Assembly: GCA_965225725.1 (NCBI GenBank)
Contig: CBDDBI010000010.1
Coordinates: 169,229-233,228 of the forward strand
Reading direction: 5' to 3'
Source of the DNA: an uncultured Granulicella sp.
Lineage (GTDB): Bacteria > Acidobacteriota > Terriglobia > Terriglobales > Acidobacteriaceae
Length of the DNA stretch: 64,000 nucleotides
Shown here: positions 6,096 to 64,000 of the stretch, piece after piece
How the letters are laid out: each line of letters begins with the position of its first letter
Numbering within the stretch: the stretch's first letter is position 1
Position numbers and translations under genes: made by a program
Notes under the pieces: model-generated
Seen by the model: the letters and a program-made list of their open reading frames with translations, nothing else
Database searches by the model: none
Told to the model about the DNA's origin: nothing

Positions 6096-6097
6096 CG

Positions 6098-6222: not shown

Positions 6223-6242
6223 TCTTCTCCAAAGGAGAAACA

Positions 6243-11567: not shown

Positions 11568-12338
11568 CTACAGGTTCAGCTTCTTGAACACCCGCTCCGG
11601 GATGTGCTGGATCACCCACATAATCGGGCCCCACTGGAACGGCACATACAGGTTGTCCGCCTTCGCGTCGATCGCCTTCACGATTGTCTGCGCCACGGCA
11701 TTCACATCCGCCATCTTCTCCGCGCCCGGCATGTGCGAGGTCATCGCCGTGCGCACCGGACCCGGCTTGATATTGAGGATGGTGACACCCTCGCGGTCGA
11801 CGCGATTTCGCAGCCCGCCAAGAAACGCCGACAGCGCCGCCTTCGAGCTGCCATAAAGGTAGTTCGACTTACGCCCTCGATCCCCCGCCACCGACGAGAT
11901 CACCGCCAGCACGCCCGCATGACGCTGGACGCAGAAGTTAGCCAGCCACGTCAGCAGCGACACCGCCGAGATGAAGTTGGTATGGATAATCTGTGCCGCC
12001 GTGGCGAAGTCTTGTTCCGCCCTGGCCTGGTCGCCCAGGATTCCGTGCGCAAGGTACGCCACATCCATCCCGCCCAGCGAGTTGATAGCGTGAGCCAGCA
12101 GCGCCGGGTGCTGCGTCGTATCGTCCAGATCGGACAACGCCGTGTCGACGTATCCGGCACCGCGTGTCTTCAGATCGGCCGCAACCGCCGCCAGCTTCTC
12201 AGCATTGCGTGCAACCAGGAAAAGGCTCGCGCCCTGCGAAGCCCAGATGCGGCAGGTTGCCTCGGCAATGCCCGACGTTGCGCCCAGAACCAGTATCTTC
12301 CGGCTTGCCGCCGGCGAAGTCGAAGCAGATGTACTCAT
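11568..12338 (-). CDS. SDR oxidoreductase, DprE2-like
   Basis: VLGATSGIA and SSVAGDRGRKSNYLYGSSKAAL (YxxxK); overlaps the DprE1-like stop codon. Confidence 0.85.
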   Translation of the reverse strand: MSTSASTSPAASRKILVLGATSGIAEATCRIWASQGASLFLVARNAEKLAAVAADLKTRGAGYVDTALSDLDDTTQHPALLAHAINSLGGMDVAYLAHGILGDQARAEQDFATAAQIIHTNFISAVSLLTWLANFCVQRHAGVLAVISSVAGDRGRKSNYLYGSSKAALSAFLGGLRNRVDREGVTILNIKPGPVRTAMTSHMPGAEKMADVNAVAQTIVKAIDAKADNLYVPFQWGPIMWVIQHIPERVFKKLNL

Positions 12339-13726
12339 AGGGTGGTGATATCTCCGGTAACGCGCTCCCAGAAGCTGGAGGTGATAAGAGGATCCTTGAA
12401 GCGGGCAAACTGCTCCCAGTTCGGGTAGAACGTGCGGAACTGCGGACCCGTCATCGCGGCATCCTTCGCCGGGTACAGCCGGCCGCCAAACTCCACCGTC
12501 ATGTCGCCCAGGCGCTGCATCAGCGGGAACGTCAGGTCGGGCTTGATCGGGAAGTCGAGCGCCAGCATGATGCCCGCTTGCGGAAAGCTCATCATGCCAC
12601 CCGAATCGATCGGTCCGAACGCCTTCAGCACCGCAAGGAAGCTCGCCAGGCCGGACTTCGCAATCTCCTTCAGGATGGCGACAGTGCCTTCCTTCGCGTC
12701 AGCCCACGGAATCGCATACTGAAACTGAACCAGCCCGCGCTTACCGTACATCCGGTTCCAGTGCAGCACCTTGTCCAGCGGGTAGAAGAACGGCTCGTAG
12801 TCCTGCACCGTCTTCACATGCGGCTTCATCTGCTTGTGGAAGAACACCGTATTGAACGCCGCGACACTCATGCTGTTCAACGCAAATCCCGGCGCGTTGA
12901 ACGGAAACACCAGCTTCGGCTCCGGGCTCGGCTCAAGCGGGCCCGGCACCTTCGCGTGATCGCCCAGCATATACACACCGCGTGCAAAGTTTTTGCCCGT
13001 GGAAGTACAGTCCACCCAGCTCACCGTGTACTCCACATCGGCGTACTGCTTCTTGATGGCGAGAAACTCGTCGATACCGTGGTACTGAATCCCCTCGTAA
13101 TCGATCCCGCGCGAGACAATCGGCTTCAACCGCAGCTGCGCCCAAGTAATCAGCCCCGTCAGGCCCATCCCGCCAATCGTGGCCAGGTACCAGTCCGGAT
13201 TCTCCGTGCGCGAGCAAAGTCTTCGCGTCCCATCGGAGCGCACCAACTCAAACTGCGGCACATAGCACCCGAACGAACCCGCCAGCTCATGATTCTTGCC
13301 GTGAACGTCGTTCGCGATGGCACCGCCCAGCGTCACGTACTTCGTACCCGGCGTTACCGGCAGAAAGAAGCCGCGCGGCACGGCAAAGTCCAGAATCTGC
13401 GCCAGCGTCGCGCCCGATTCGGCGGTCAAAATCCCGGTCTCCGGGTCGAAGTTCAGCAGACGGTTCATCCCCGTCGTCAGCACCAGGTTGCCGTCCTTCA
13501 GCAGGCAGCTATCGCCGTAGCTACGGCCCATGCCCACCGGCAGAATGCCATTGTGCAGGTCGGCAACGTTGGCCGGAAAGTCCTGCTGCCAGTGCATCGG
13601 CACAATCTTTGCGTCGTACCGCGGATACCGCCCCCAGCTCTCAAACGGCACATCGCCATCCGGCGGCGTCGGAACATCCGAAGTTACGCGTTCAGGAGCG
13701 GCAGCAGGCGAGGCAAAGGTAGACAT
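12335..13726 (-). CDS. FAD-binding oxidoreductase, DprE1-like
   Basis: GMGRSYGD, PVTPGTKYVTLGGAIANDVHGKNH, ATIGGMGLTG, LALDFP and GGRLYPAKD motifs. Confidence 0.88.
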   Translation of the reverse strand: MSTFASPAAAPERVTSDVPTPPDGDVPFESWGRYPRYDAKIVPMHWQQDFPANVADLHNGILPVGMGRSYGDSCLLKDGNLVLTTGMNRLLNFDPETGILTAESGATLAQILDFAVPRGFFLPVTPGTKYVTLGGAIANDVHGKNHELAGSFGCYVPQFELVRSDGTRRLCSRTENPDWYLATIGGMGLTGLITWAQLRLKPIVSRGIDYEGIQYHGIDEFLAIKKQYADVEYTVSWVDCTSTGKNFARGVYMLGDHAKVPGPLEPSPEPKLVFPFNAPGFALNSMSVAAFNTVFFHKQMKPHVKTVQDYEPFFYPLDKVLHWNRMYGKRGLVQFQYAIPWADAKEGTVAILKEIAKSGLASFLAVLKAFGPIDSGGMMSFPQAGIMLALDFPIKPDLTFPLMQRLGDMTVEFGGRLYPAKDAAMTGPQFRTFYPNWEQFARFKDPLITSSFWERVTGDITTL

Positions 13727-13771
13727 ACTCCTAGGATAGCGTCTTCAACGCAAAAGATGTTGCGGAAAGCA

Positions 13772-13799
13772 GAGGGGCACAGCGAAAGCTGTGCCCCTC
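13772..13799 (-). terminator. Hairpin downstream of rplT, probable terminator
   Basis: Perfect 12-bp stem gaggggcacagc-gaaa-gctgtgcccctc. Confidence 0.65.
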
Positions 13800-13835
13800 G
13801 TGTTACAAAGCCGAAAAGTGTTACAAAGCCGAAAA
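13800..13835. repeat. Exact 18-bp tandem duplication
   Basis: gtgttacaaagccgaaaa at 13800-13817 and 13818-13835. Confidence 0.9.
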
Positions 13836-13837
13836 AG

Positions 13838-14239
13838 CTAGACGGCTGCGGTCTGCTGACGTTTCGCGTGCTCCGCCGCAGCCTTCGTGCGTGCGTCCTT
13901 GGCGACGACCGCAAGCGCGGCAAACCCCGCCGCGTCATTCGCCGCGATGTCCGCCAGGATCTTGCGATCGAGCGTGTTGCCCGCCAGCTTCAGGCCGTTG
14001 ATAAACGTCGAGTAGCTCATGCCGTTCGCCAGCGCACCCGCGCCAATACGCACGATCCAGAGCGAGCGAAACTGACGCTTCTTCTGCTTACGGCCGGAAT
14101 AGGCAAACTTGAGACCGCGCTCGACAGCTTCTTGCGCAGCCTGGTACAGCTTGGATTTCGTGAGGAAGTAACCGCTTGCGCGCTTTAGAATCTTGCGGCG
14201 CCGGTCAGCGCGCTTTGTACTCCGTTTTACACGGGGCAT
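13838..14239 (-). CDS. rplT: 50S ribosomal protein L20
   Basis: [29 protein letters not shown] and [10 protein letters not shown]; SD aaggag upstream. Confidence 0.97.
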
Positions 14240-14409
14240 GGTGAATCTCCTTTTTGCGTAGTTCGTTTTAGCGGCTGGTGGAAAGGCTTCCACTTCACTC
14301 GCTCTTGCAAGCCTGAATCTCGATGGAGTTCGCTCAACGCTTGCTCCAGGGGCCCATCACGCAATTGCGGCCCAACTCGATCCAAACAACGGGTCAAAAC
14401 CTATGCAGC

Positions 14410-14607
14410 TCAGGCGTACGGCAGCATCCGCGCGACGTTGTAGTGATCCGCGTCCGAGATGAGTCCGGCCTTGCCCAGGCGGCTCTTGGTCTTGTTGTTC
14501 TTCGACGTCAGAATGTGGCGCATCTTCGAGTGGCCCCGCTTGAACTTGCCGGAACCAGTCTTCTTGAAGCGCTTGGCTGCGCCGGAGTGTGTCTTCAACT
14601 TTGGCAT
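14410..14607 (-). CDS. rpmI: 50S ribosomal protein L35
   Basis: MPKLKTHSGAAKRFKKTGSGK...RHILT...LPYA. Confidence 0.97.
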   Translation of the reverse strand: MPKLKTHSGAAKRFKKTGSGKFKRGHSKMRHILTSKNNKTKSRLGKAGLISDADHYNVARMLPYA

Positions 14608-16415: not shown

Positions 16416-19148
<2,733 letters not shown>

Positions 19149-25198: not shown

Positions 25199-26008
25199 AT
25201 GCCGGATCAGGCCGACGCGTCGCACTCGCAATCCGGTTCGCCAGCCCCCACGCCCCCCCTTATCGAAGCCCGCAACCTCACCAAGCGCTACGGCGCCGCA
25301 ACCGTCGTCGACAACGTCTCGCTCACGCTCCACCGCGGCGAGACGCTCGGGCTCGTCGGCGAATCCGGCTCCGGCAAAAGCACCGTCGCGCGCATGATCC
25401 TGCGGCTCATCGAGCCCACCGCCGGCTCCGTCCACTTCGACTCCACCGACGTGCTCGCCGCCAACCAACGCGACCTCCGCAGACTCCGCTCGCGCATGCA
25501 GATGGTCTTCCAGGACCCCTTCGCCGCGCTCAACCCGCGCATGCGCGTCCGCGACATCGTCGCCGAACCCTTCCACATCCAGGGCGGCTTCTCCCGCAGC
25601 CACATCCTCGCCCGCACCGCCGAACTCCTCGCCGAGGTCGGCCTTGAACCCGACGCACTCCCCCGCTACCCGCACGAGTTCTCGGGCGGCCAGCGGCAGC
25701 GCATCAACATCGCCCGCGCCCTCGCCCTCAAACCCGACTTCCTGGCCTTAGACGAACCCGTCAGCGCCCTCGACGTCTCGGTCGGCGCCACCGTCATCAA
25801 CCTGCTGCGCGATCTCCAGCGCAAGCACGGCCTCACCTACCTCTTCATCTCGCATTCCATGCCGCTCATCCGCTACCTCTCGGACAACGTTGCCGTCATG
25901 GAGCGCGGGCGCCTGGTCGAAACCGGCCCGGTCCTCCAGGTCTGCGACCATCCCCGCGAACCCTACACCCAGCGCCTCATCGCCGCCACGCCCGAACTCC
26001 CAATCTGA
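25199..26008 (+). CDS. Peptide/nickel ABC transporter ATP-binding subunit (OppF/DppF-like), orphan
   Basis: GESGSGKS Walker A, YPHEFSGGQRQRI signature, DEPVSALD and HPREPYT. Confidence 0.92.
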   Translation: MPDQADASHSQSGSPAPTPPLIEARNLTKRYGAATVVDNVSLTLHRGETLGLVGESGSGKSTVARMILRLIEPTAGSVHFDSTDVLAANQRDLRRLRSRMQMVFQDPFAALNPRMRVRDIVAEPFHIQGGFSRSHILARTAELLAEVGLEPDALPRYPHEFSGGQRQRINIARALALKPDFLALDEPVSALDVSVGATVINLLRDLQRKHGLTYLFISHSMPLIRYLSDNVAVMERGRLVETGPVLQVCDHPREPYTQRLIAATPELPI

Positions 26009-26014
26009 AAACAA

Positions 26015-26168
26015 GTCCTGCCGGACGGGCCCGCTCACCACGCGGGGCGGGTACTGCGTACGCCGGGAGCTTCGCGTGCGCACGCGCCACAGTATCTCGT
26101 GCCGACCAACGGGAGGATCACGCGAAGCGATTACGGCACGAAGTGCTCGCCGCCCGCGACTAGGGCGC
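26015..26168. mobile_element. Modular palindromic element (family 1), right end truncated
   Basis: gtcctgccggacgggcccgctc...gtactgcgtacgccgggagcttcgcg...cgcccgcgactagggcg. Confidence 0.75.
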
Positions 26169-26190
26169 ACTTGCACCTCGGTACAATGGA

Positions 26191-26988
26191 GTGACTGTGA
26201 TTCACGCCCTCTCCCTCCATTGGCGCTTCCTCTGGCTCGTCTTCGCCTCGCTCATCGCCGGCATTATGAACGCCATGGCTGGAGGAGGTTCTTTCATTTC
26301 TTTTCCCGCGATGCTCGGAATGGGAATTCCGCCGGTCGAAGCAAACGCCACAAACACAGTCGCGCTTTGGCCCGGACAACTGACTTCGCTCGCGTCCCTC
26401 CGCAAAGACGTCCGAACCGACTTGCTCACGCTCGTCCTCGGAACGTCCGTCATTGGCGGAATCACCGGCGCGGAAACGCTTCTGCACACGCGTCAGCTCA
26501 CCTTTCTCCACCTGATTCCCTGGCTTTTGCTCATGGGAGCCTCGATCTTCGGCATCTCTGGACCAGTCTCCAAATGGCTGCGAAACCGCTCGGTCAAAGA
26601 CGCCTCTCAGCCACAAGTTGAACCGCCAATCAACCAGTTCGCGCTCTTCTTCGGCCTCTTTCCCATCTGCTTCTACATCGGATATTTTGGCGCGGGAGGA
26701 GGATTCCTCATCATGACCGTTCTAGCGCTCTTCGGCATGGAACAGATGCATCAGCTCAACGCCATGAAGGTCGTCGCAGCCTGCGCCTCGAACCTCTTTG
26801 CCATCTTCACCTTCATCGCCAGCGGCCGCATCGTCTGGCACGATTGCCTGGTCTCGATGGTCTTCGCCGCAACCGGAGGATTGATCGGAGCGCATTACGC
26901 CAAGCGGATGAATCCCGCAATCCTGCGCGCGGTCGTCGTCATCACCGGACTCACAATCGCCGCATACTTCTTCTACCGTCAGCGCTGA
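26191..26988 (+). CDS. Sulfite exporter TauE/SafE family membrane protein
   Basis: AGIMNAMAGGGSFISFP, ANATNTVALWPG and FYIGYFGAGGG. Confidence 0.88.
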   Translation: MTVIHALSLHWRFLWLVFASLIAGIMNAMAGGGSFISFPAMLGMGIPPVEANATNTVALWPGQLTSLASLRKDVRTDLLTLVLGTSVIGGITGAETLLHTRQLTFLHLIPWLLLMGASIFGISGPVSKWLRNRSVKDASQPQVEPPINQFALFFGLFPICFYIGYFGAGGGFLIMTVLALFGMEQMHQLNAMKVVAACASNLFAIFTFIASGRIVWHDCLVSMVFAATGGLIGAHYAKRMNPAILRAVVVITGLTIAAYFFYRQR

Positions 26989-26989
26989 C

Positions 26990-27037
26990 ACGCGAAGCGT
27001 TCACGCCACGAAGTGGTCGCTGCCCGCGATCAGGGCG
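26990..27037. repeat. Single arm of family 1 element
   Basis: acgcgaagc...cacgaagtggtcgctgcccgcgatcagggcg matches the arms at 14866 and 26168. Confidence 0.65.
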
Positions 27038-27065
27038 TAGTTGCCGTTGCCATTATCCTAGAGAC

Positions 27066-27506
27066 ATGAGTCACGAAGGAATCCGCATCATCAGCGAGCA
27101 GCAGGCGCGCCGCGAACTCGCCGCCGAGCGCCCGCTGCCCGCAGCCGCAGTTACGCCGGACAAAGTGCGCGTTAAGAAGTCCGAAGGTACAGGCGTGGAG
27201 ATCGACTGGAAAGACGGCCATAAGAGCAGTTGGAACTTCGCCTGGCTGCGCAACGCCTGTCCTTGCGCCACCTGCAATGAAGAACGCCAGAAATCCGGAC
27301 GCGAGCCTGGAACGCCGAAGCCGCGTCCGAGCGGTCCGCTGGTCATGTACGAAGCTCCGCCGCGCCCGCTCGAAGTCAGTCCCGTAGGCAAATACGCGGT
27401 GCGCTTCAAGTGGAACGACGGCCACGAATCCGGAATCTACTCCTGGGACTACTTGCGGCGCGTCTGCCACTGCGACGCGTGTCTCTCCGAACGAGAAGCC
27501 GAATAG
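27066..27506 (+). CDS. DUF971 (GBBH-like N-terminal) domain protein
   Basis: IDWKDGHKS, WLRNACPCATC, VGKYAVRFKWNDGHESGIYSWDYL, plus a second CHCDAC. Confidence 0.88.
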   Translation: MSHEGIRIISEQQARRELAAERPLPAAAVTPDKVRVKKSEGTGVEIDWKDGHKSSWNFAWLRNACPCATCNEERQKSGREPGTPKPRPSGPLVMYEAPPRPLEVSPVGKYAVRFKWNDGHESGIYSWDYLRRVCHCDACLSEREAE

Positions 27507-27509
27507 TCC

Positions 27510-28175
27510 CTAAATCTCCGAGTCCATCTTGGCTTCCTGGTAGTTGCTGATGTGCTCGTAGATCTCATCCGGGAACTTCAGGTTGCGGTAGAGGTTGCCG
27601 CAGTCCGGATCGTCCGGGAACGGAATGATGGGAAACTCCTGCTGCGCCTGGTACGAGAGGATCTTATCGCGTCGCGGCGGGTTGTAGTCCTTGCCTTCAA
27701 CTTGCCGCAGCATCAGGCGCGCCTTCTCTTCGTCAACGTCCTTGTCCTTCATCATCCAGGCGAGAACCTCATCGTGCGAGAGGAAGTGGCGCGCAACCAT
27801 GGCGAAGACCAGCCGACCGTAGTGTCCAATGTCTTTGCCGGCGTCGAGCGAATCCAACAGATGCGCCATCATGGAGTCTTTGCGGAGTTCGGCTTCCCCG
27901 CCCTGCGCATCGCCCGAACCTTTTGTAGCTTCAACGTCACCGGTATTGCGTTCTGTGCTCGGGCTTGGCGGAGTCTTCAACGAGTCGCCGCTGGGTGCGG
28001 GTTTGTGGGCTGCTGCGTTCTTCAGCTTGGCAAGTTCCGCCTCCGCGTGTTCGGCGCGTTCGGTCGCTTGCCGAAGCGCTTCGGACTGCTCGTCGGTGAT
28101 CTGCGGTTGATCGAGAACTACTTCGCGCTCTGCCATCTTCGGGCCCTCATTCTTGCGAATGGCTTTATTCGCCAT
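27510..28175 (-). CDS. Hypothetical protein; C-terminal half resembles the PriL C-terminal/PriX helical domain
   Basis: Clean ORF (start may be 28136). Segment MAHLLDSLDAGKDIGHYGRLVFAM...DVDEEKARLMLRQVEGKDYNPPRRDKI recalls the PriL CTD pattern; this is an alignment from memory only. Confidence 0.55.
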   Translation of the reverse strand: MANKAIRKNEGPKMAEREVVLDQPQITDEQSEALRQATERAEHAEAELAKLKNAAAHKPAPSGDSLKTPPSPSTERNTGDVEATKGSGDAQGGEAELRKDSMMAHLLDSLDAGKDIGHYGRLVFAMVARHFLSHDEVLAWMMKDKDVDEEKARLMLRQVEGKDYNPPRRDKILSYQAQQEFPIIPFPDDPDCGNLYRNLKFPDEIYEHISNYQEAKMDSEI

Positions 28176-28245
28176 CTCTTCGCTTTCTATGAGACGCGGC
28201 GCAGTCCTTTCTTGTTGCCTGCAACGTCTCTCTCTGCGGTGAAGG

Positions 28246-28830
28246 CTAAGCCTCGAGCAGCGTGAACAGTTCTTCGACGGAATGAGCGACGAGCAGAATG
28301 AGGCGGTTCTTCGGCTTCAGCACGCCATTTTCGACGCACTCGTCAAGGAACTTGAGCAAGGTGTCGTAGAAGCCGGCCGTGTTGAGCAGGATGATCGGCT
28401 TCTGGTGCAGTTTGAGGGTTTGCCAGGCGAGCACTTCGAACATCTCCTCGAAGGTGCCGAAGCCGCCGGGCAGGATAATGAAGGCGTCGGAGCGCTCGCC
28501 CATCAGCGCCTTGCGCGTGTGCATGGTGGAGGTGACGTGGAGCTCGGAGATGCCGTGATGCGCGACTTCGAGGTCGACGAGCACCTCTGGAATTACGCCG
28601 ACAACGTGACCGCCGGCTTCGAGTGCGGCTTCGGCCACGGCCCGCATCAGGCCCACGCGCGCGCCGCCGTAGATGAGCCCGATCCGTCGCGCCGCGAGCT
28701 CCCGGCCCAGGGACTCTGCGGCGCTGCGATAGAGGGGGTTAGTACCGTCCGCCGAGGCGCAGAAGACGGCTACATTGCGAATCCCGGCTGGCTGTTGGCC
28801 GGAGGCTTCTTCAGAGGAAACAAGCGTCAT
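28246..28830 (-). CDS. LOG family nucleotide phosphoribohydrolase (TIGR00730)
   Basis: VAVFCAS, LIYGGARVGLM, MHTRK and LPGGFGTFEE (PGGxGTxEE). Confidence 0.93.
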   Translation of the reverse strand: MTLVSSEEASGQQPAGIRNVAVFCASADGTNPLYRSAAESLGRELAARRIGLIYGGARVGLMRAVAEAALEAGGHVVGVIPEVLVDLEVAHHGISELHVTSTMHTRKALMGERSDAFIILPGGFGTFEEMFEVLAWQTLKLHQKPIILLNTAGFYDTLLKFLDECVENGVLKPKNRLILLVAHSVEELFTLLEA

Positions 28831-28915
28831 ACTTCGATTATCGCTTAGGTATGTCGCTCGACGATAACGAAGCACCTGGCGTCTAGAAACACTTGTAGCT
28901 CAAAGTAGGTTGGAG

Positions 28916-29236
28916 TTACTGAAGGTCGATGACCTGATTCTCAGTTTGCGAGCTAAGTTCGACAAGCACCTCGCCACGATGATGCGCGCCCGTGGAACTA
29001 TCGGCATAGATAATGGTACCGGCTGGAGCCTTGATCTTAAGGCCCTGGTGAGGCCCGATGGTGTAGCTGTGACCAGCTATCTTGATATCCTGGAAGATGG
29101 GCGCATCGTTGTGCAATGCGAGGCTGATGCGGTAGTCGGGCTGAACCGAATGCGGATGCAGATGCACCAGCTTCGGGAGCGGCGAGACAGCGGTGGAGGC
29201 GGACAACGCGAGTACGGCGAGGGACGTGTAGATCAT
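28916..29236 (-). CDS. Secreted hypothetical protein
   Basis: Signal-like MIYTSLAVLALSAS; SD aaggga upstream; beta-rich mature part. Confidence 0.7.
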   Translation of the reverse strand: MIYTSLAVLALSASTAVSPLPKLVHLHPHSVQPDYRISLALHNDAPIFQDIKIAGHSYTIGPHQGLKIKAPAGTIIYADSSTGAHHRGEVLVELSSQTENQVIDLQ

Positions 29237-33541: not shown

Positions 33542-35104
33542 TTGCCGAGACAAATCTTTGCTAAAAAGTCCATCGACAAACTTATCTCCGACTCCGAGCG
33601 CCCGGAACATGCGCTGAAGAAGACGCTTGGGCCGGTTTCGCTGACCGCGCTTGGGGTTGGCATCGTGATCGGCTCAGGCATCTTCACGGTGATTGGTACC
33701 GCGATTGGCGGAAATCCTGCAACGACGGCGACGTGGTCGGAATCGCCTGTGATCGACCTGATCTGGGGTGCGCTGCACCATACGAGCGGGGTGGTTGCGG
33801 GCCGTCCCGGCGCAGGGCCGGCGCTGGTCATCTCGCTGTTGCTCGTCGCGTGTGTGTGCGCGCTCACCGGGCTGTGCTACGCGGAGCTCGCGAGCATGAT
33901 TCCGATCGCGGGGTCCGCCTACACCTATTCCTATGCGACTCTGGGCGAGTTGATCGCGTGGATTATCGGATGGGACCTGATTCTCGAATACGCGTTTGCC
34001 AATATGAGCGTCTCGGTGGGCTTCGCGGCGCACCTGGTGAATTTGCTTGACTGGTTCGGAATTCATCTTGACCCGAAGTGGCTGGAGCCGGCGTACCTGC
34101 CGCTGGGCGCGCAGGACCTGGCCGGGCACGATATCTTTGCGCCCGGGCTGCACTTTGGATTTGATATTCCAGCGTTCCTGATCGTGCTGATCATCACCTA
34201 CCTGCTGGTGCGCGGCATTCGCGAGTCGGCGCGGACGAACAACGCCATGGTGCTGATCAAGATCGGCGCCATTCTCACCTTCGTCTTCTTCGGCCTGAGC
34301 TTCATCCACCCGGCGTACTACCATCCGTTTGCGCCGACCGGAATGGGCGGGATCTTGGCTGGCGGGTCCATTATCTTCTTCACGTACATCGGCTTCGATG
34401 CCGTTTCGACGGCTTCGGAAGAGTGCAAGAAGCCGCAGCGCGATGTGCCGATTGGCATCATTGCGACGCTGATCGTTTGCACCGTGCTCTACATCGGCGT
34501 GGCGGCTGTGCTTACGGGTCTCGTGCCCTGGCAGTCGGTTGCGGGAGATGGAGCGCCAGTGGTGAACGCGCTGCAGCGCGTAGCGCTGACGCCGGGTGCG
34601 CATCGTCTGCACTGGGTTCGTCTTGCGGTGCTCTTCGGGGCGATTCTCGGGATGGTTTCGTCGATCCTGGTGGGGCAGTATGGGCAGGCGCGCATCTGGT
34701 TTGCGATGTCGCGCGACCGACTGCTGCCGGACCGCTTCAGCAACATCCACCCGCGGTTTCGCACTCCGGCCTTCGCCACCTGGGTTGCGGGCATCCTGGT
34801 TGCAATTCCAGCGGGGCTGTTCGACGTGGGTACGCTGGCGGAGATGTCGAACATCGGAACGCTGTTTGCGTTTGTGCTGGTTTCGATCGGCGTGATCGTG
34901 CTGCGCTACAAGGATCCGGAGCGCCCGCGTGGGTTCCGCGTGCCGTTCGGCCCGGTGATACCGATTCTGAGCGTGTGCTTTTGCATCCTGCTAATGGCTG
35001 GGCTGCCGGCGCGGACTTGGATTCGCTTCTTTCTATGGCTGATCATTGGGCTCTTTGTCTACGTGCTGTACTCGCGCAAGCGCAGCGAGTTCTACGAACA
35101 GTAG
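33542..35104 (+). CDS. Amino acid permease (APC superfamily, cationic amino acid transporter-like)
   Basis: LGVGIVIGSGIF, YAELASMIPIAGSAYTY, FFTYIGFDAVST and QARIWFAMSRD. Confidence 0.93.
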   Translation: MPRQIFAKKSIDKLISDSERPEHALKKTLGPVSLTALGVGIVIGSGIFTVIGTAIGGNPATTATWSESPVIDLIWGALHHTSGVVAGRPGAGPALVISLLLVACVCALTGLCYAELASMIPIAGSAYTYSYATLGELIAWIIGWDLILEYAFANMSVSVGFAAHLVNLLDWFGIHLDPKWLEPAYLPLGAQDLAGHDIFAPGLHFGFDIPAFLIVLIITYLLVRGIRESARTNNAMVLIKIGAILTFVFFGLSFIHPAYYHPFAPTGMGGILAGGSIIFFTYIGFDAVSTASEECKKPQRDVPIGIIATLIVCTVLYIGVAAVLTGLVPWQSVAGDGAPVVNALQRVALTPGAHRLHWVRLAVLFGAILGMVSSILVGQYGQARIWFAMSRDRLLPDRFSNIHPRFRTPAFATWVAGILVAIPAGLFDVGTLAEMSNIGTLFAFVLVSIGVIVLRYKDPERPRGFRVPFGPVIPILSVCFCILLMAGLPARTWIRFFLWLIIGLFVYVLYSRKRSEFYEQ

Positions 35105-52266: not shown

Positions 52267-53373
52267 CTAGGCGAACTGTTCCAGGAAGCGCAGATCACCG
52301 GAGTAGAAGTGGCCGATGTCTGAGACGCCGTGGAGAATCATGGCGATGCGCTCGACACCCATACCGAAGGCGAAGCCGCTGACGCGCGCGGGGTCGTAGG
52401 GGGCGGGGTCGAGCCCGAGCCGCCGGCGCTCTTCGGTAACCGCCTGGAAGACGGCGGGGTCGACCATTCCGCAGCCGAGGAGCTCGATCCAGCCGGAGTG
52501 CTTGCACTTGCGGCAGCCGGTGCCGCCGCAGAAGATGCAGGATATCTGCACGTCGGCGGAGGGTTCGGTGAACGGAAAGAAGCTGGGGAAGAAGCGGGTT
52601 TTCACATCGGCGCCGAAGAGCGCGCGCATCGCGTGGTCGAGCGTGCCTTTCAGGTCCGAGAAGGTGATGTCGGGGCCGACGCAGAGACCTTCCACCTGGT
52701 GAAAGATGGGAGAGTGCGTGGCGTCGGCGGCGTCGTTGCGGTGGACTTTGCCGGGGATGACGATGCGCAGCGGCGGCGCCTGCGCGACCATGGTGCGGAT
52801 CTGGACGGGGCTGGTGTGCGTGCGCATCAGCAGCCGGTCGCGGCTGGGTTTGGAGGATTGGCCGGCGATCTGGAGGGTGTCCTGGGTGTCGCGGGCGGGG
52901 TGGTTTTCCGGGAAGTTGAGCGCTTCGAAGTTGTAGAAATCGCTCTCGACCTGGGGGCCGAGCTCGGTCGAATAGCCAAGCTGGTGGAAGACCTCGACGA
53001 CGCGATCCATGGTGGTGAGCAGCGGGTGCGCGATGCCGGCCGGGCGGATGATGCCGGGGAGGGTGACGTCGAGCTGCGGGAACCTGGGCGCGGGTGCGGC
53101 TGCAGGGGCGTCGAGAACTTCTTCGATCTCTTGCTTGAGCTGGTTGAAGCGGATGCCGAGCGGCTTGCGCGCTTCGGCGGGCGCGGATTTAAGCCACGCA
53201 TCGGAGACGAGCTTGAGGCGGCCTTGCTTGCGGCCGAGCCAATGCAGGCGGAACGCTTCAGCGTCGCGCGCGGCCTCTGCGGTGGAGGCCTTCACTTCGA
53301 CCTCGAGGAGGGCGAAGGCGTGGTCGAGCGAAGGCTCGGAGTAGTCGGGCAGTTGCGGGATGGAATCGCTCAT
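52267..53373 (-). CDS. pheS: Phenylalanine--tRNA ligase alpha subunit
   Basis: NFEALNFPENHPARDTQDT, RTHTSPVQ, HSPIFHQVEG, FFPFTEPSAD and GFAFGMGVER. Confidence 0.97.
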   Translation of the reverse strand: MSDSIPQLPDYSEPSLDHAFALLEVEVKASTAEAARDAEAFRLHWLGRKQGRLKLVSDAWLKSAPAEARKPLGIRFNQLKQEIEEVLDAPAAAPAPRFPQLDVTLPGIIRPAGIAHPLLTTMDRVVEVFHQLGYSTELGPQVESDFYNFEALNFPENHPARDTQDTLQIAGQSSKPSRDRLLMRTHTSPVQIRTMVAQAPPLRIVIPGKVHRNDAADATHSPIFHQVEGLCVGPDITFSDLKGTLDHAMRALFGADVKTRFFPSFFPFTEPSADVQISCIFCGGTGCRKCKHSGWIELLGCGMVDPAVFQAVTEERRRLGLDPAPYDPARVSGFAFGMGVERIAMILHGVSDIGHFYSGDLRFLEQFA

Positions 53374-53421
53374 CGTGTCCTATCCAGCGTAAACGATGGA
53401 GCCCGTGGGCGTTTGCGGCGG

Positions 53422-54555
53422 CTAGGCGATGGCGACCGGTTTCTGCTCGGGCTCGGCGTAGACGAACCGTCCACGGCCGCTCTGCTTGGCCTGGTAGAGG
53501 GCATCGTCGGCGCGCTTGAGCAGGTGTGCGGAGTCAACTTCGCCCGGCGATGGCAGCGAGATACCGACACTGGCGCCGACCGTGACGCGGTGATTGCTGA
53601 CGTGGAAGGGCTTGCCGAGCGTGTAGGTGATGCGCTCGGCAAGAGTTTCCGCGTTGCTGCGCTGGGTAACCGGCAGTTGCAGGACTGCAAATTCGTCCCC
53701 GCCGAGCCGCGCCACGATGTCTTTGGCGCGGACGATGGAGACGAGCCGCTCGCCGACCTGGTGGAGGAGTTGATCGCCGACCGCATGGCCGTACGCGTCG
53801 TTGACCGGCTTGAAGGCGTCGAGATCGATAAAGAGGATGGCGAACGTGACGCCCTCGTCGCACAGGCTATCGAGTGCCGCGCAGAAGCCGCGACGGTTCA
53901 GGAGGCCGGTCAGCGGATCCCGTTCCGACAACGTGCGGAGCTTGCGCTGGATGCGGATCTGCTCGACGACGATATCGAACTTCTCCTGCACAGCCCGGCA
54001 GTGCGCGATGGCGAACATGGCGAGCATGGCCTCTGCAGTGAGGGCGATGATGTCCTGCGGATTCCATAGGCAGACGGCCAGCACACAGAGCATCACCACG
54101 CCGTGCAGCTTCGCTGTCCTCGGGCTGGCACTGATGCGCCCGCTGATGCCGTTGCAGAGGATGAAGATGCCAAGCATGCAGAGCATCTCCACCGGTTGGC
54201 GATGGAGGTGGAAGTTCCAGACCGTAGTGGCTGCCAGGCCGCTGAAGTAGGAGAGCAGGACGGCGTTGAAGACGTGCTGGCGCGGCTTGCTCGCGAGGAA
54301 GAGCTTGCGGTAGGCGGCCGATCGCTCCAGCCGCAGAACGACAAAGACGCGGATTGCGGCGAGCAGCGTGAGCAGGACGGCGATCACGCCAACCACGCGA
54401 TCTTGGTAGTGGATCGCTACGACGACCGTCGCGCCCACCATGCCGATGGCTCCGAGGAGCACGGTGTGGACCAGGCCGCGGAGGGACATCTCGGTTAACT
54501 CCGCGCGGACATCTTCGTAACCGCGCGGGTCCATTCGGTTGGGTGCGGACTCCAT
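53422..54555 (-). CDS. Membrane-anchored diguanylate cyclase
   Basis: About six TM helices; DPLTGLLNR, DLDAFKPVNDAYGHAVGD and RLGGDEF. Confidence 0.92.
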   Translation of the reverse strand: MESAPNRMDPRGYEDVRAELTEMSLRGLVHTVLLGAIGMVGATVVVAIHYQDRVVGVIAVLLTLLAAIRVFVVLRLERSAAYRKLFLASKPRQHVFNAVLLSYFSGLAATTVWNFHLHRQPVEMLCMLGIFILCNGISGRISASPRTAKLHGVVMLCVLAVCLWNPQDIIALTAEAMLAMFAIAHCRAVQEKFDIVVEQIRIQRKLRTLSERDPLTGLLNRRGFCAALDSLCDEGVTFAILFIDLDAFKPVNDAYGHAVGDQLLHQVGERLVSIVRAKDIVARLGGDEFAVLQLPVTQRSNAETLAERITYTLGKPFHVSNHRVTVGASVGISLPSPGEVDSAHLLKRADDALYQAKQSGRGRFVYAEPEQKPVAIA

Positions 54556-54635
54556 GACTGGAGTAGGTATCGGCTAATTGCGCAGGGAACTTCGGCCGTG
54601 TACCAGGACCGGCGGCCCATGAGGCAGGAGAGTGG

Positions 54636-56144
54636 TTATATGGCGGAGGCGACAACAAGGGCGACGACGACGCCGAGGAGCAGAGACCGCTTGTCGGTGA
54701 TGGCGTAGACGACCGGGTCTTCGTTGAGCTCGCCGCGGCTGGCGAGCAGCCAAAGCTGCATGACCCACAGGAGGAAGACGGGGAGCAGGAACCAGAGGCG
54801 GCCCGCGTGATGGTAAAGCCGCGTGTCCAGGCTGGAGATGTAGAGCATGAGCACGACGACCGAGGCGTATGCGGCGGAGGTCCCGAAGCTGCGGAGTTGC
54901 TCGATATCCGAGAGCAGGTAGCCGCGACCGTTGGATGGGGCTTTGTCGCGCAGGCGCAGACTTTCGAGCTCCGCGAAACGCTTGACGAAGGCAAGCGAAA
55001 GGAAGAAGAAGATGGAAAAGCCGCCCAGCCAGTTCGAGACTGGTACGCCGCTGGCCGCGGAGCCGGCGAAGATGCGGATGGTGTAGAGCAGCGAAAGCAC
55101 AATGACGTCCACCAGCACGACGCGCTTGAGGGCGAACGAGTACGCGGTCGTGGTGACGGCGTAGATGAGCAGCCAGGCGACGGGGCTCCACCAGTGCAGG
55201 AGCGGGGAGCCGGTGAGCGCGACAATGCGCGGCAGCGCAAGCATGAGCACGAGCGAGATGGCCAGGAATGTGACGAGAACCATGACGCCGGAGATGGCGG
55301 AGAGATTGCCGGCGGCGAAGGGCCGTCGCTGTTTGGAATGGTGGCGGCGGTCGGCCTCGATATCCAGCAAATCGTTAACGATGTACGTCGCGGAGGCGCA
55401 GAGGCCGAAGGCGAAGAACGCAATCACTGCGCCGAGTATCGGGCCGGCCGGGTGGGCCGCGTGCCAGACGTGCGCGAGAAGCAGCGGAAGAAAGATGAGA
55501 GCATTTTTCGCCCACTGGTGCAGGCGGATCGCCTTGAGCCACGCCTTGTGCGTGGGAACGCCGTCGCGGAAGATGTGAGCGGGGGTGACCTTAGCGGCGC
55601 GCAGGCCGCTCATCAGCGCGGCGTCGGGGTTGGCAACCATGGGTTCCAGGCAGCCAACCAGGATGGGGATATCCGGGCGCGCGTTGCCGATGTAGGAGAA
55701 GCGCTCGCCGAAGAGCGCGCGGAAGGCCTGCAGCTTGTTGTTGCCGGCCAGGTTGTTGGCTCCATCAGACGCGAGAACGCCCTTGAAGATGGGGTGATGC
55801 TCGGCGATGCGGTCAGCGAGCGAGCGGTCGGCGGCGGTCGCGAGGTAGATTTCGCGGCCCTGGGCGTGCTGGTGAAAGAGAAATTCGAGCAGCGGCTTGT
55901 TGTACGGGAGCACGGCGACGTCAATGGTTACGGCGGAGGTAACATGCTGCTTGAACTTTGCCTTACCCTGTGAGAGCCAGCCAGGGATGGAGAGGAGCGC
56001 TCGAGGGTTCTGGCGGACGAGCGCGAGCACGGAATCCACGAGGGTGTCGGATTTCACGAGCGTGCCGTCGAGGTCCACGCACAGCGGCAGGGTCTTCACG
56101 GGCGTGGACACCGAGGGATCGAGCGACTGGGAGATTGAGGACAC
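54636..56144 (-). CDS. HAD-phosphatase/UbiA prenyltransferase fusion (DPPR synthase-like)
   Basis: N-terminal DLDGTL (HAD motif I); LHQWAKN, NDLLDIEADRRH..K.RRP, YSFALKR, KRFAE and DDP-like NEDPV. Confidence 0.88.
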   Translation of the reverse strand: MSSISQSLDPSVSTPVKTLPLCVDLDGTLVKSDTLVDSVLALVRQNPRALLSIPGWLSQGKAKFKQHVTSAVTIDVAVLPYNKPLLEFLFHQHAQGREIYLATAADRSLADRIAEHHPIFKGVLASDGANNLAGNNKLQAFRALFGERFSYIGNARPDIPILVGCLEPMVANPDAALMSGLRAAKVTPAHIFRDGVPTHKAWLKAIRLHQWAKNALIFLPLLLAHVWHAAHPAGPILGAVIAFFAFGLCASATYIVNDLLDIEADRRHHSKQRRPFAAGNLSAISGVMVLVTFLAISLVLMLALPRIVALTGSPLLHWWSPVAWLLIYAVTTTAYSFALKRVVLVDVIVLSLLYTIRIFAGSAASGVPVSNWLGGFSIFFFLSLAFVKRFAELESLRLRDKAPSNGRGYLLSDIEQLRSFGTSAAYASVVVLMLYISSLDTRLYHHAGRLWFLLPVFLLWVMQLWLLASRGELNEDPVVYAITDKRSLLLGVVVALVVASAI

Positions 56145-61886: not shown

Positions 61887-62041
61887 GAGGTTGCGTTTGC
61901 GCGGCAAACCCTGGAAGCACGTTTGCGGCGGATTTACTCCTCTTGTCTCCTGATCAAAATCCTGGAGCAGACAGGCCGGTAGAACAGACGTTTGTGCGCC
62001 TTCGATCCTTCTTGGCGGTCGGCCACAACAAGCATCGCCAA

Positions 62042-62116
62042 GGCCAGATAGCTCAGTGGTAGAGCGCGGCCCTGAAAAGGCCGGCGTCGGCGGTTCGATC
62101 CCGTCTCTGGCCACCA
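62042..62116 (+). tRNA. tRNA-Phe (GAA)
   Basis: Acceptor stem GGCCAGA/TCTGGCC, D arm GCTC/GAGC, anticodon arm CGGCC-CTGAAAA-GGCCG, GTTCGAT T loop, encoded CCA. Confidence 0.97.
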
Positions 62117-62218
62117 CATTCTAAAGCACTTAGTAGCAACCAGAATTAACTCAGATTAGTTCAAGACACATATAGGACACATCCTTGATAGCAAGTGGGA
62201 CCTCTCGGTACCACTCAG

Positions 62219-63352
62219 TCAAGCTCGCTGTCCTGCTTTCTTTTGTGCAACGGCACTCTCTCCCCCCTCTGGCTGCGGTTCCAGCTTGCTCCAAAGCTCG
62301 CGGGAAACGTTGCCGGTCTTCACGATGTGCGCCCTGGCTAGGTCGGCGTATCGCTCCGTCATCCTGATGTTGGAATGACCGAGCAACTTCGAAAGCTCGT
62401 AGAGGTCGCCACCCGACATCATGTACCAAGAAGCAAAGGTGTGGCGCAGATCGTGGAAACGAAAGTCTCGAATCTTTGCCCTCTCAAGCAATTCATGAAA
62501 ACTCTTATCCGCACGCTGACGCCCACTGGTTGCACCTGGTTCGGGAGGCAAGATGCGATCCTCCCCTATGACGGACGGGTATCGCCGAATCTCTTCTCCG
62601 AGTTCAGGCGGCATTGGTACAAGGCGCACTTTGCCCTTCTTGAGCCTTGCCCTCACGGCGATTAATCCCTCGCCGTAGAGGATGTCCTCCCACTCGAGCC
62701 GAAAGATCTCTCCCTTTCGCATACCCGTTCCAACGGCAATCAGGACCAGCAGACGAAGCCGAAGATTCGTCTGGTTGATGTCCTTAGTCCCTCTCCGGTA
62801 CATCCTCTCGTCGAGAGCCACCTTTAATCGGAGAAGTTCCTCCTTGGAAAGGTAGCGCTTCCTCGCATCATCGATGTGCTCTACTTCGACCTGGTCGGCG
62901 GGGTTCCGATCAAGTCCGGTCACCGTCGTCCAGATGGTAGATGCCTTCCTCATCATGTGGTGCATGACGTGGAAGTGGCGCTCCGCAGTGTTCACGGCCA
63001 ACTCACGAACATCCGTCAGGTAGTCGTACCATTCCTGCACAGCCATTCCATCCACCTCTCTCACGAACATTCGTCCAAGTTGCGATCGAATGCCTTCGAC
63101 GATGCTCTTCTCTCGATCCGCTGATTTTTTCTTTACCCCGTACTGCTCCCAGTAACGGTCGATCAGGTCGTCCATCCGGTAGTTGATTTCCTTCTTCACA
63201 TCGAGGTGCCGGTTTTCAGCTCGAAGTGTGAGCTTCTTTCGCTCAATATCTCTTGCAAGAGTGGCCGAGCCGTGGACCAGTACGCTCCGGGCGCGACCTC
63301 CCTCTCTCCAACGGACTTTGTACAGTCCTTCGTCTAGCTTTGTGACAGACAT
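62219..63352 (-). CDS. Tyrosine recombinase/phage integrase
   Basis: GMRKGE (R), KKGK (K), FHDLRH (HxxR), LGHSN (H) and RYADL (Y). Confidence 0.93.
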   Translation of the reverse strand: MSVTKLDEGLYKVRWREGGRARSVLVHGSATLARDIERKKLTLRAENRHLDVKKEINYRMDDLIDRYWEQYGVKKKSADREKSIVEGIRSQLGRMFVREVDGMAVQEWYDYLTDVRELAVNTAERHFHVMHHMMRKASTIWTTVTGLDRNPADQVEVEHIDDARKRYLSKEELLRLKVALDERMYRRGTKDINQTNLRLRLLVLIAVGTGMRKGEIFRLEWEDILYGEGLIAVRARLKKGKVRLVPMPPELGEEIRRYPSVIGEDRILPPEPGATSGRQRADKSFHELLERAKIRDFRFHDLRHTFASWYMMSGGDLYELSKLLGHSNIRMTERYADLARAHIVKTGNVSRELWSKLEPQPEGGESAVAQKKAGQRA

Positions 63353-63363
63353 CTGACGTCTCC

Positions 63364-63615
63364 TTAGTCAATGGTTCCGATTGTGTGTTCGTCGATATAG
63401 CGGTTTAGAGCCACTAGATCGAAGCGCAACGCACGACCGGCCTTGACGTGAGGAATCGCCCGTAGCTGGACCCACTTGTGGAGCGTATCCACACTGACGC
63501 CCAAATACTGGGCAGCCTCCCCGACGTTCAGGAGCCGCCTTCCAATGCTTCCATTTGACACTATTGCCGTTGACTTTTCAGTTGTTGCGCCGATGTCTCG
63601 CTGTAGTCCGTGCAT
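63364..63615 (-). CDS. Excisionase-like HTH (HTH_17) protein
   Basis: LLNVGEAAQYLGVSVDTLHKWV...IPHVKAGRALRFD. Confidence 0.88.
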   Translation of the reverse strand: MHGLQRDIGATTEKSTAIVSNGSIGRRLLNVGEAAQYLGVSVDTLHKWVQLRAIPHVKAGRALRFDLVALNRYIDEHTIGTID

Positions 63616-63774
63616 AAACACTTTTCCTCCTTGCACTTGCGGCGCTTCGCAGCAACATGCTCGCCAGATTTGATCGGAGATTTTCCTCGTGGAGCGGACC
63701 TGATCCAACACCGACCCGTTCCATCCGCCTTGGTACGTGTGCTGCGGCGACGCTTGTTCATATGTAGGTTGGGT

Positions 63775-64000
63775 TCAAAACTCGGTCAAATCCCCCTGTC
63801 TTTTGCCCTTTCCGATCCGCGCATTGTCGAGGTCACCGTCCCAACCTCCCTCTGTTCGAGTTCGAGCGCAAGATGCGATGAAGTCATCATCTTGCCTAGG
63901 ACACATAAGAGCGGACAGATTTGACCGAGTTTCGGAATCGCTCCATGCTGGCACCGTGTTCGAGGAGGTGGCCATGGGGCTGAGGGCGAAGTATTTCTTG
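63775..64000 (-). CDS. C-terminal part of a gene entering from beyond the window end
   Basis: The frame stays open to the window edge (KKYFALSPMATSS...); no recognisable motif. Confidence 0.4.
   Translation of the reverse strand, partial: KKYFALSPMATSSNTVPAWSDSETRSNLSALMCPRQDDDFIASCARTRTEGGWDGDLDNARIGKGKRQGDLTEF

What the first reader, a model, noticed from the sequence alone, without database searches (positions are those of the whole stretch)
54636..56144. HAD-UbiA fusion may supply both upstream steps of the arabinose-donor pathway
Seen: N-terminal HAD DxDGT domain fused to a DPPR-synthase-like UbiA domain, 41 kb from the DprE pair. Known: mycobacteria use UbiA (Rv3806c) and a separate phosphatase to make DPR from PRPP. 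Inference: the fusion performs both prenyl transfer and dephosphorylation, so the window encodes the full four-step route in two unlinked loci; no arabinosyltransferase or GtrA flippase is visible here.
Basis: inference. Interest (0 to 1): 0.55.

Follow-up and report, generated by a model that had tools for sequence, protein, structure and literature searches.

The report
Fused phosphatase–prenylphosphate ribosyltransferase gene
This soil acidobacterium carries a two-domain enzyme of an already characterised kind that most likely makes a lipid-linked ribose, which a nearby enzyme pair would convert into the lipid-linked D-arabinose donor; the gene is a real but ordinary member of a widespread family.

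Summary
Window 54636-56144 (-) encodes a 502-aa protein. Its N-terminal HAD phosphatase domain keeps all four catalytic motifs. Its C-terminal nine-helix UbiA domain is closest to M. tuberculosis DPPR synthase Rv3806c (Z 28.7, rmsd 2.7 A). A DprE1-like/DprE2-like pair lies 40.9 kb away at 11568-13726 (-).

- The whole protein matches the curated NCBIfam family NF006088 (548 bits, cut-off 351).
- The same HAD-plus-PPPRS layout was shown biochemically for Citrobacter youngae ORF15 (Kelly et al., PNAS 2024). ORF15 makes polyprenyl-P-ribofuranose, and its HAD Asp mutant accumulates the 5-phosphate intermediate.
- In 42 of 80 loci fetched from many phyla, the fusion gene is followed directly by dprE1, and in 33 also by dprE2.

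So the usual form is one operon, and this lineage has split it. The fusion now sits upstream of pheS and dprE1-dprE2 sit behind rpmI-rplT. Both halves are kept in all 11 genomes checked with the split arrangement.

The transferase and flippase were not identified. The genome has 17 PMT_2-type GT-C candidates, none on the window's contig, and no Emb or AftA type. The acceptor glycan is unknown.

Verdict: a new member of a known kind, of modest interest.

The parts
54636..56144 (-). Gene for the bifunctional HAD phosphatase / polyprenyl-phosphate 5-phosphoribosyltransferase (502 aa, stop codon included)
   Evidence: ORF. NCBIfam NF006088 over the full length, 548 bits against a cut-off of 351. 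It is the only match to this family in the 5.45-Mb genome.
55560..56099 (-). HAD (C1-capped, HAD-IB-like) phosphatase domain, residues about 16-195, predicted to be the phosphoribose 5-phosphatase
   Evidence: Across 56 diverse fused homologues: motif I D24-L-D26-G-T28 and motif III K137 are invariant; motif II T103 is T or S in all 56; motif IV is G153-[N/D]-xxx-D158 with G153 and D158 invariant. The model aligns to 3fvv at Z 17.3 and to SerB phosphoserine phosphatases at Z about 14. Foldseek also lists AlnB, the alnumycin P phosphatase.
54639..55553 (-). UbiA-family membrane domain, residues about 198-502, nine helices, polyprenyl-phosphate phosphoribosyltransferase type
   Evidence: Aligns to 8j8j (Rv3806c) at Z 28.7, rmsd 2.7 A, 286 of 290 residues and 29% identity; the next UbiA structures reach Z 20.4. 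N257-D258-xx-D261-xxx-D265, K271, R274, K388 and R389 are invariant, and E392 is kept in 55 of 56. NCBIfam DPPRS models score E 1e-31, against E 1e-7 for 4-hydroxybenzoate prenyltransferase models.
12335..13726 (-). DprE1-like FAD oxidase (463 aa), predicted polyprenyl-P-ribose 2'-oxidase
   Evidence: NF053785 at 322 bits, below its cut-off of 500. Best PDB hits are mycobacterial DprE1 at E 3e-66, and the lysine of the YTAKD segment is kept as YPAKD. It is the only such gene found in the genome.
11568..12338 (-). DprE2-like short-chain reductase (256 aa); overlaps the end of dprE1 by 4 bases
   Evidence: NF005489 at 283 bits (cut-off 267); the DprE2 model NF053786 at 193 bits (cut-off 250). 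The best PDB hit is DprE2, 21gq_C, at E 2.9e-35.
13838..14239 (-). rplT (ribosomal protein L20), directly upstream of dprE1; context of the split
   Evidence: Translation and sequence. The rplT-dprE1-dprE2 order is conserved in five same-genus genomes and in G205.
14410..14607 (-). rpmI (ribosomal protein L35); context
   Evidence: Read directly from the sequence.
52267..53373 (-). pheS, downstream of the fusion gene; context of the split
   Evidence: Pfam and TIGR00468. The fusion gene is followed directly by pheS in G087 and G123, and in 13 close relatives among L043-L056.
53422..54555 (-). GGDEF diguanylate cyclase gene lying between the fusion gene and pheS in this genome only; not considered part of the pathway
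   Evidence: Pfam GGDEF, E 1e-41. It is absent from this position in relatives.

Best explanation
The gene encodes a bifunctional cytoplasm-facing membrane enzyme. Its C-terminal UbiA-type domain transfers 5-phosphoribose from PRPP to a polyprenyl phosphate, probably undecaprenyl phosphate. Its N-terminal HAD domain then removes the 5-phosphate through an aspartyl-phosphate intermediate on D24, giving polyprenyl-P-beta-D-ribofuranose. In this organism that product is most likely the substrate of the DprE1-like oxidase and DprE2-like reductase encoded 41 kb away. Together they would epimerise C2 to give polyprenyl-P-D-arabinofuranose, a donor for a periplasmic GT-C glycosyltransferase that is still unidentified. 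Shown here: domain architecture, conserved catalytic motifs, fold, family membership and conserved gene linkage. Inferred: the activities, the lipid carrier, the coupling to DprE1/E2 and the final glycan.
For: Family: NF006088 over the full length, above its cut-off. Fold: the UbiA half aligns to Rv3806c at Z 28.7 and the HAD half to HAD-IB phosphatases at Z 14-17, on a model with pLDDT 93.7. Catalytic residues: in 56 fused homologues of 36-62% identity, the HAD motif residues D24, D26, K137 and D158 and the NDxxDxxxD motif are invariant, and motif II is always T or S. Precedent: C. youngae ORF15 has the same N-terminal HAD and C-terminal PPPRS order. It makes farnesyl-P-Ribf from PRPP, its D18A mutant accumulates farnesyl-P-Rib-5-P, and its N247/D248/D251/D255 are required (PMC11127046). 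The corresponding positions here are D24 and N257/D258/D261/D265. Linkage to DprE: 42 of 80 loci from Acidobacteriota, Myxococcota, Alpha-, Beta- and Gammaproteobacteria and Nitrospirota have dprE1 about 60-100 bp downstream of the fusion gene, and 33 also have dprE2. G062, of the same family, has a fusion-dprE1-dprE2 operon. 31 of 34 acidobacterial genomes with DprE1 also have a DPPRS-like UbiA. This genome has exactly one of each. All 11 genomes checked with the split arrangement keep both halves.
Against: No activity was measured. The protein scores below the NCBIfam equivalog cut-offs for actinobacterial DPPRS (110 bits against 207-474). The DprE1-like and DprE2-like proteins are also below their equivalog cut-offs. 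Six of the 14 acidobacterial genomes with the fused gene had no DprE1-like match, so the fusion does not need DprE1/E2, and ribofuranose itself may be the sugar transferred. No flippase or GT-C gene is linked to either locus here. No D-arabinofuranose glycan from Acidobacteria turned up in the literature searched. ORF15's D18A mutant kept some activity, so the phosphatase step may not depend strictly on the HAD domain.
Confidence: 0.75

Rival explanations
1. The fusion makes polyprenyl-P-ribofuranose as the final donor, for a ribofuranose or xylofuranose side chain as in Citrobacter O1/O2. The DprE1/E2-like pair is not its obligate partner, or uses only part of the pool.
For: Six of the 14 acidobacterial genomes with the fused gene (G111, G179, G016, G068, G095, G184) have no DprE1-like match at E<=1e-40. 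38 of the 80 fetched loci lack an adjacent dprE1. The characterised prototype transfers Ribf.
Against: This genome has the DprE pair and no other DPPRS-like gene that could supply its substrate. Both halves are retained together in all 11 split-arrangement genomes checked. At least 13 of the 38 loci without an adjacent dprE1 belong to the split lineage, and the five of its genomes that were checked carry dprE1 elsewhere.
Confidence: 0.15
2. The HAD domain is not the phosphoribose 5-phosphatase. It might be structural or regulatory, or act on some other phosphoester, with a separate phosphatase doing the dephosphorylation as Rv3807c does in mycobacteria.
For: The Pfam HAD match is weak (22.8 bits, below the cut-off). 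Motif IV begins with Asn rather than Asp in 42 of 56 family members. ORF15 D18A kept some product formation.
Against: The nucleophile and general acid D24/D26, the Ser/Thr at 103, K137 and D158 are kept across 56 sequences of 36-62% identity. The fold is a complete capped HAD. The ORF15 D18A mutant accumulated the 5-phosphate intermediate.
Confidence: 0.05
3. The UbiA domain is an aromatic prenyltransferase. JGI annotates relatives as 4-hydroxybenzoate polyprenyltransferase/phosphoserine phosphatase.
For: Source annotations of homologues. Weak hits to ubiA models, E 1e-7.
Against: DPPRS models score 24 orders of magnitude better than ubiA models. The best structure is Rv3806c by a margin of 8 Z units. 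The Asn-led NDxxDxxxD motif matches the residues required in ORF15. The gene forms a conserved operon with dprE1/dprE2.
Confidence: 0.02

Closest known systems
Citrobacter youngae O1 ORF15, a polyprenyl phosphoribofuranose synthase with an N-terminal PRP domain (Kelly et al., PNAS 2024, PMC11127046)
   Same: Same domain order: N-terminal HAD phosphatase, C-terminal nine-helix UbiA/PPPRS. The same catalytic positions are present (D18 against D24; N247/D248/D251/D255 against N257/D258/D261/D265). The structural match to Rv3806c is similar (published Z 25.9, rmsd 2.7 A; here Z 28.7, rmsd 2.7 A).
   Different: ORF15 lies in an O-antigen locus beside a flippase and a GT136 GT-C, and supplies Ribf, or Xylf through an SDR epimerase. 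The gene here stands among housekeeping genes, no transferase or flippase is linked, and its likely partners are DprE1/E2 homologues. Sequence identity to ORF15 was not measured.
Mycobacterium tuberculosis Rv3806c (DPPR synthase) plus Rv3807c (PAP2 phosphatase), followed by DprE1/DprE2
   Same: The same four chemical steps are predicted. The UbiA, DprE1 and DprE2 components are homologous, each with the mycobacterial protein as its best PDB hit.
   Different: The phosphatase is a fused HAD domain, not a separate PAP2 protein. The carrier is probably undecaprenyl rather than decaprenyl phosphate. No Emb- or AftA-type arabinosyltransferases are present. All three proteins score below the NCBIfam cut-offs for the actinobacterial equivalogs.
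Rhizobial noeCHOP / noeCNHOP arabinosylation operons and the Pseudomonas (PA7 group) D-Araf pilin glycosylation genes
   Same: These are Gram-negative bacteria using homologues of DPPRS, DprE1 and DprE2 to make a polyprenyl-P-D-Araf donor (PMC5080398; PMC11127046).
   Different: In those systems the genes are clustered with their transferase (NoeP, TfpW), and the phosphatase is separate where one is known (NoeN; a separate enzyme in P. aeruginosa). Here the phosphatase is fused and the module is split between two loci.
NCBIfam NF006088 (PRK08238), 'UbiA family prenyltransferase'
   Same: Full-length member above the curated cut-off.
   Different: None detected. The family's name gives no specific function.

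Membership tests
NCBIfam NF006088 (PRK08238) fused HAD-UbiA family | Full-length match above the curated cut-off of 351 bits | tested here: met
   548.4 bits, residues 16-502 against profile positions 9-480 of 482.
HAD superfamily phosphatase | Four catalytic motifs: DxDx[T/V]; S/T; K/R; and an acidic motif IV | tested here: met
   D24-L-D26-G-T28, T103, K137 and G153-N-xxx-D158. D24, D26, K137 and D158 are invariant, and position 103 is T or S, in all 56 homologues. Motif IV starts with N, the family norm, instead of D.
HAD superfamily phosphatase | Rossmann-like core with a cap domain | tested here: met
   Model residues 16-194 align to 3fvv at Z 17.3 (176 residues, rmsd 3.1 A) and to SerB/PSP structures at Z about 14.
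Pfam PF12710 HAD | Score above the gathering cut-off of 27 bits | tested here: not met
   22.8 bits. Many homologues do carry a precomputed PF12710 hit.
Polyprenyl-phosphate phosphoribosyltransferase (DPPRS/PPPRS) branch of UbiA | Asn-led first Asp-rich motif NDxxDxxxD, required in Rv3806c and ORF15 | tested here: met
   N257, D258, D261 and D265 are invariant in 56 of 56. The requirement for these residues comes from PMC11127046.
Polyprenyl-phosphate phosphoribosyltransferase (DPPRS/PPPRS) branch of UbiA | Closest solved structure is DPPRS rather than another UbiA enzyme | tested here: met
   8j8j at Z 28.7 against 20.4 for the next UbiA structure. By phmmer, E 1.3e-20 against 4e-3.
NCBIfam decaprenyl-phosphate phosphoribosyltransferase equivalogs (NF008976/7/8) | Score above the curated cut-offs (207-474 bits) | tested here: not met
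   91-110 bits. The protein is related to the actinobacterial enzyme but is not an equivalog of it.
ORF15-type PRP-PPPRS bifunctional synthase | PRPP-dependent formation of polyprenyl-P-Ribf, with the 5-phosphate intermediate accumulating in the HAD Asp mutant | not testable with these tools
   Needs the biochemical assay used in PMC11127046.
ORF15-type PRP-PPPRS bifunctional synthase | Direct sequence homology to ORF15 (AWU66546.1) over both domains | not tested
   The ORF15 sequence was not obtainable through the tools. Only the architecture and the published residue positions were compared.
Three-component pentofuranose modification system (PPPRS + flippase + GT-C in one locus) | Flippase and GT-C genes encoded next to the synthase | tested here: not met
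   The neighbours are a GGDEF gene, pheS, pheT and an alpha-glucan phosphorylase gene. No PMT_2, GtrA, Emb or AftA hit lies on the window's contig.
DprE1 (NF053785) | Score above the 500-bit cut-off; DprE1 as the closest characterised relative | tested here: inconclusive
   322 bits, below the cut-off. The best PDB hits are all DprE1 at E 3e-66, 58 orders of magnitude ahead of other FAD oxidases.
DprE2 (NF053786) | Score above the 250-bit cut-off; DprE2 as the closest characterised relative | tested here: inconclusive
   193 bits, below the cut-off. The best PDB hit is DprE2 at E 2.9e-35, against 2e-19 for the next SDR. The gene overlaps dprE1 by 4 bases.

The most novel reading that the evidence does not exclude
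Members of this Acidobacteriaceae lineage decorate an undescribed envelope glycan, lipid or glycoprotein with D-arabinofuranose. The donor module has been split into two unlinked loci but is still retained together. The transferase belongs to a GT-C type unrelated to the Emb/Aft enzymes and to the transferases linked to the operon in Proteobacteria.
Probability: 0.5. Interest if true: 0.45.

Novelty: new member of a known kind. Interest (0 to 1): 0.28.

Why it matters
The result corrects misleading public annotations of this family, which call it '4-hydroxybenzoate polyprenyltransferase/phosphoserine phosphatase'. It extends the lipid-linked pentofuranose donor pathway, characterised in 2024, to Acidobacteria, a dominant and poorly studied soil phylum whose surface glycans are barely known. 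It shows that the three-gene donor module (fusion, dprE1, dprE2) is a widely distributed cassette that is paired with very different transferases. It does not open a new mechanism.

Tried and rejected
1. A single-sequence AlphaFold run gave a useless model (pLDDT 43). It was replaced by a run with a 56-sequence alignment.

2. GT-C partner, first attempt. In G180 a 9-TM protein lies between the fusion gene and dprE1. Its best relative in this genome is C8:539839-541230, a PMT_2-type protein of 463 aa beside an fpg-like gene. That relative is only 28-31% identical, and none of the five same-genus genomes had a match to the G180 protein. It was rejected as the conserved partner.

3. GT-C partner, second attempt. 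HMMs or phmmer searches were built from seven groups of large multi-TM proteins encoded beside the operon in other phyla. None found anything in this genome. Those proteins have no Pfam family and are barely related to each other.

4. A family-level PMT_2 scan drew a different sample of genomes, so it could not serve as a phyletic profile. It showed only that Acidobacteriaceae carry 5-20 such genes each.

5. A small conserved ORF upstream of dprE1 was suspected to be a GtrA-like flippase, like Rv3789. It is ribosomal protein L20.

6. Window ORF 33542-35104 (10 TM) is an amino-acid permease, not a GT-C.

7. The idea that one reciprocal recombination between fusion|dprE1 and rplT|pheS produced both new junctions was tested. 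G062, G203 and G204 have an intact cassette and adjacent rplT-pheS, as the idea predicts. Acidipila rosea (G201) and G202 have an intact cassette but separated rplT and pheS. The idea is left unresolved.

8. The 955-aa open frame at the fusion gene in G184 looks like a spurious upstream extension in very GC-rich DNA, not a further fusion.

9. The scan's earlier findings held nothing relevant to this look-up.

Full report
**What is there.**
Window 54636-56144 (-) is a 502-aa ORF.
- Pfam finds a UbiA domain at residues 219-465. It also finds a sub-threshold HAD match at 64-161.
- NCBIfam places the whole protein, residues 16-502, in the curated family NF006088/PRK08238 at 548 bits against a cut-off of 351.
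- Decaprenyl-phosphate phosphoribosyltransferase models are the next best at E 1e-31, but below their own cut-offs. 4-hydroxybenzoate prenyltransferase models reach only E 1e-7.
- The gene is the only match to this family in the 5.45-Mb genome.
- The closest named relatives are Granulicella proteins at 72% identity. The nearest named loci come from Acidobacteriaceae such as Acidipila, Edaphobacter and Terracidiphilus. The organism is therefore an Acidobacteriaceae.

**The two domains.**
An AlphaFold model built on 56 diverse homologues is confident (pLDDT 93.7, pTM 0.90).
- Residues 198-502 form nine membrane helices. They align to M. tuberculosis DPPR synthase Rv3806c (8j8j) at Z 28.7, rmsd 2.7 A, over 286 of 290 residues. 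Other UbiA enzymes reach Z 20.4 or less (Foldseek; sequence).
- Residues 16-194 form a capped HAD fold. It is nearest to HAD-IB proteins: 3fvv at Z 17.3 and SerB phosphoserine phosphatases at Z about 14. Foldseek also lists AlnB, the alnumycin P phosphatase.
- Across 56 fused homologues of 36-62% identity, the following HAD positions are conserved:
  - the nucleophile and acid pair D24 and D26, in DLDGT (invariant);
  - the motif II Thr/Ser at 103 (T or S in all 56);
  - the motif III Lys137 (invariant);
  - the motif IV Asp158 (invariant).
- The UbiA residues N257, D258, D261, D265, K271, R274, K388 and R389 are also invariant, and E392 is kept in 55 of 56.
- This pattern is what two active catalytic sites would produce.

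**The DprE pair.**
- The gene at 12335-13726 (-) has mycobacterial DprE1 as its best solved relative, at E 3e-66. The next FAD oxidase family is at 1e-8.
- The gene at 11568-12338 (-) overlaps it by four bases. Its best solved relative is DprE2 at E 3e-35, with the next SDR at 2e-19.
- Both score below the NCBIfam cut-offs for the actinobacterial equivalogs.
- The pair lies 40.9 kb from the fusion gene, and each gene is single-copy in the genome.

**Prior knowledge.**
Kelly et al. (PNAS 2024, PMC11127046) characterised C. youngae O1 ORF15, which has an N-terminal HAD 'PRP' domain and a C-terminal PPPRS domain.
- Membranes with ORF15 convert farnesyl phosphate and PRPP to farnesyl-P-ribofuranose.
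- The D18A mutant accumulates the 5-phosphate intermediate.
- N247, D248, D251 and D255 are required.
- The authors state that glycans containing Araf come with DprE1/E2 homologues beside the same machinery.

Rhizobial noeCHOP/noeCNHOP operons and Pseudomonas pilin arabinosylation are older Gram-negative precedents.

**Gene context elsewhere.**
The family is very large. A search of 1.84 billion representatives found 3055 hits at E<=1e-30, and the best 150 match the query over both domains.
- Eighty loci were fetched from Acidobacteriota, Myxococcota, Nitrospirota, Planctomycetota and Alpha-, Beta- and Gammaproteobacteria.
- In 42 of them a dprE1 homologue starts about 60-100 bp after the fusion gene, and in 33 a dprE2 homologue follows.
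- In many proteobacterial loci a large multi-TM protein with no Pfam family comes next, presumably the transferase. These proteins are highly diverse.
- Mesorhizobium-type loci instead carry a small EamA-type transporter and an NAD-dependent epimerase in place of dprE2.
- Among 201 acidobacterial genomes, 14 carry the fused form and 34 carry DprE1.
  - 31 of those 34 also have a DPPRS-like UbiA, which often lies next to DprE1.
  - Six of the 14 fused-gene genomes lack DprE1.
- These counts include the unpublished genomes G024, G049 and G152. No claim here rests on them alone.
- G062, in the same family as the window's organism, has an uninterrupted fusion-dprE1-dprE2 operon.

**The split in this lineage.**
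- In the window's genus and its nearest relatives the cassette is broken. dprE1-dprE2 follow rpmI-rplT, and the fusion gene precedes pheS-pheT.
- The two halves lie 33 kb to 1.25 Mb apart in different genomes.
- All 11 genomes checked with this arrangement keep both halves. This argues for continued functional coupling without physical linkage.
- In this genome alone, a GGDEF gene has been inserted between the fusion gene and pheS.
- One reciprocal recombination could have made both junctions, but the test gave mixed results.

**What is missing.**
- No flippase or GT-C is encoded in the window or on its contig.
- The genome holds 17 PMT_2-type GT-C hits and two GtrA-like genes elsewhere.
- It has no Emb- or AftA-type arabinosyltransferase.
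- It has no relatives of the transferase-like proteins linked to the operon in other phyla.
- One weak candidate, C8:539839-541230, had no counterpart detected in the genus and was rejected.
- No paper linking Acidobacteria with DprE1 or D-arabinofuranose was found in the library searched. The acceptor is unknown.

**Verdict.**
This is a real feature that was correctly read. It is a new acidobacterial member of a known and recently characterised enzyme type.
- The most likely function is two-step synthesis of polyprenyl-P-ribofuranose that feeds DprE1/E2 to give polyprenyl-P-D-arabinofuranose (confidence 0.75).
- The main alternative is that ribofuranose itself is the transferred sugar (0.15).
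- The modest points of interest are the split but jointly retained cassette and the unidentified transferase and glycan.

Noticed in passing
window 11568-14607 and 52267-56144: The two halves of the arabinose-donor cassette sit at the two halves of the normally contiguous rpmI-rplT-pheS-pheT operon: rplT is followed by dprE1-dprE2, and the fusion gene is followed by pheS. A GC-rich hairpin lies between rplT and dprE1 at about 13775-13800. One reciprocal recombination could explain both junctions. However, two genomes with an intact cassette also have rplT and pheS apart.
   Followed up: partly
window about 26000-29000: GC skew changes sign from negative to positive, and cumulative skew reaches its minimum here. 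Most genes to the left are on the + strand (gyrB at 16443-19148) and most to the right are on the - strand. This may be a replication origin or terminus, or an inversion boundary.
   Followed up: no
window 62001-64000: GC content drops to 0.548 from about 0.63. A phage-type integrase gene lies at 62219-63352 (-). This may be the edge of an integrated element.
   Followed up: no
L072:11515-13902, L083:11431-13614, L092:11539-13533, L099:11411-13732: Large multi-TM proteins (577-795 aa, 7-11 predicted helices) are encoded directly after fusion-dprE1-dprE2 in Undibacterium, Duganella, Pseudomonas and Stenotrophomonas. They have no Pfam family and are barely related to each other. They are candidate arabinofuranosyltransferases of uncatalogued GT-C types.
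   Followed up: partly
L114:7884-12326 (Mesorhizobium waimense) and similar loci L090, L091, L106, L110, L116, L122: A variant cassette: fusion gene, dprE1, a 157-aa EamA-type half-transporter and a 335-aa NAD-dependent epimerase/dehydratase-family protein instead of dprE2. This suggests a different reductase and a linked flippase.
   Followed up: partly
L016:7760-9862 (-) (genome G110): A single 700-aa ORF carries a DprE1-type FAD domain followed by an SDR domain. This is an apparent DprE1-DprE2 fusion, next to an unfused DPPRS-like UbiA gene.
   Followed up: no
window 2839-7238: A cluster encoding a circularly permuted ATP-grasp protein, an alpha-E domain protein and a transglutaminase-like protein. 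The order is conserved next to the DprE pair in same-genus genomes. It looks ordinary.
   Followed up: no
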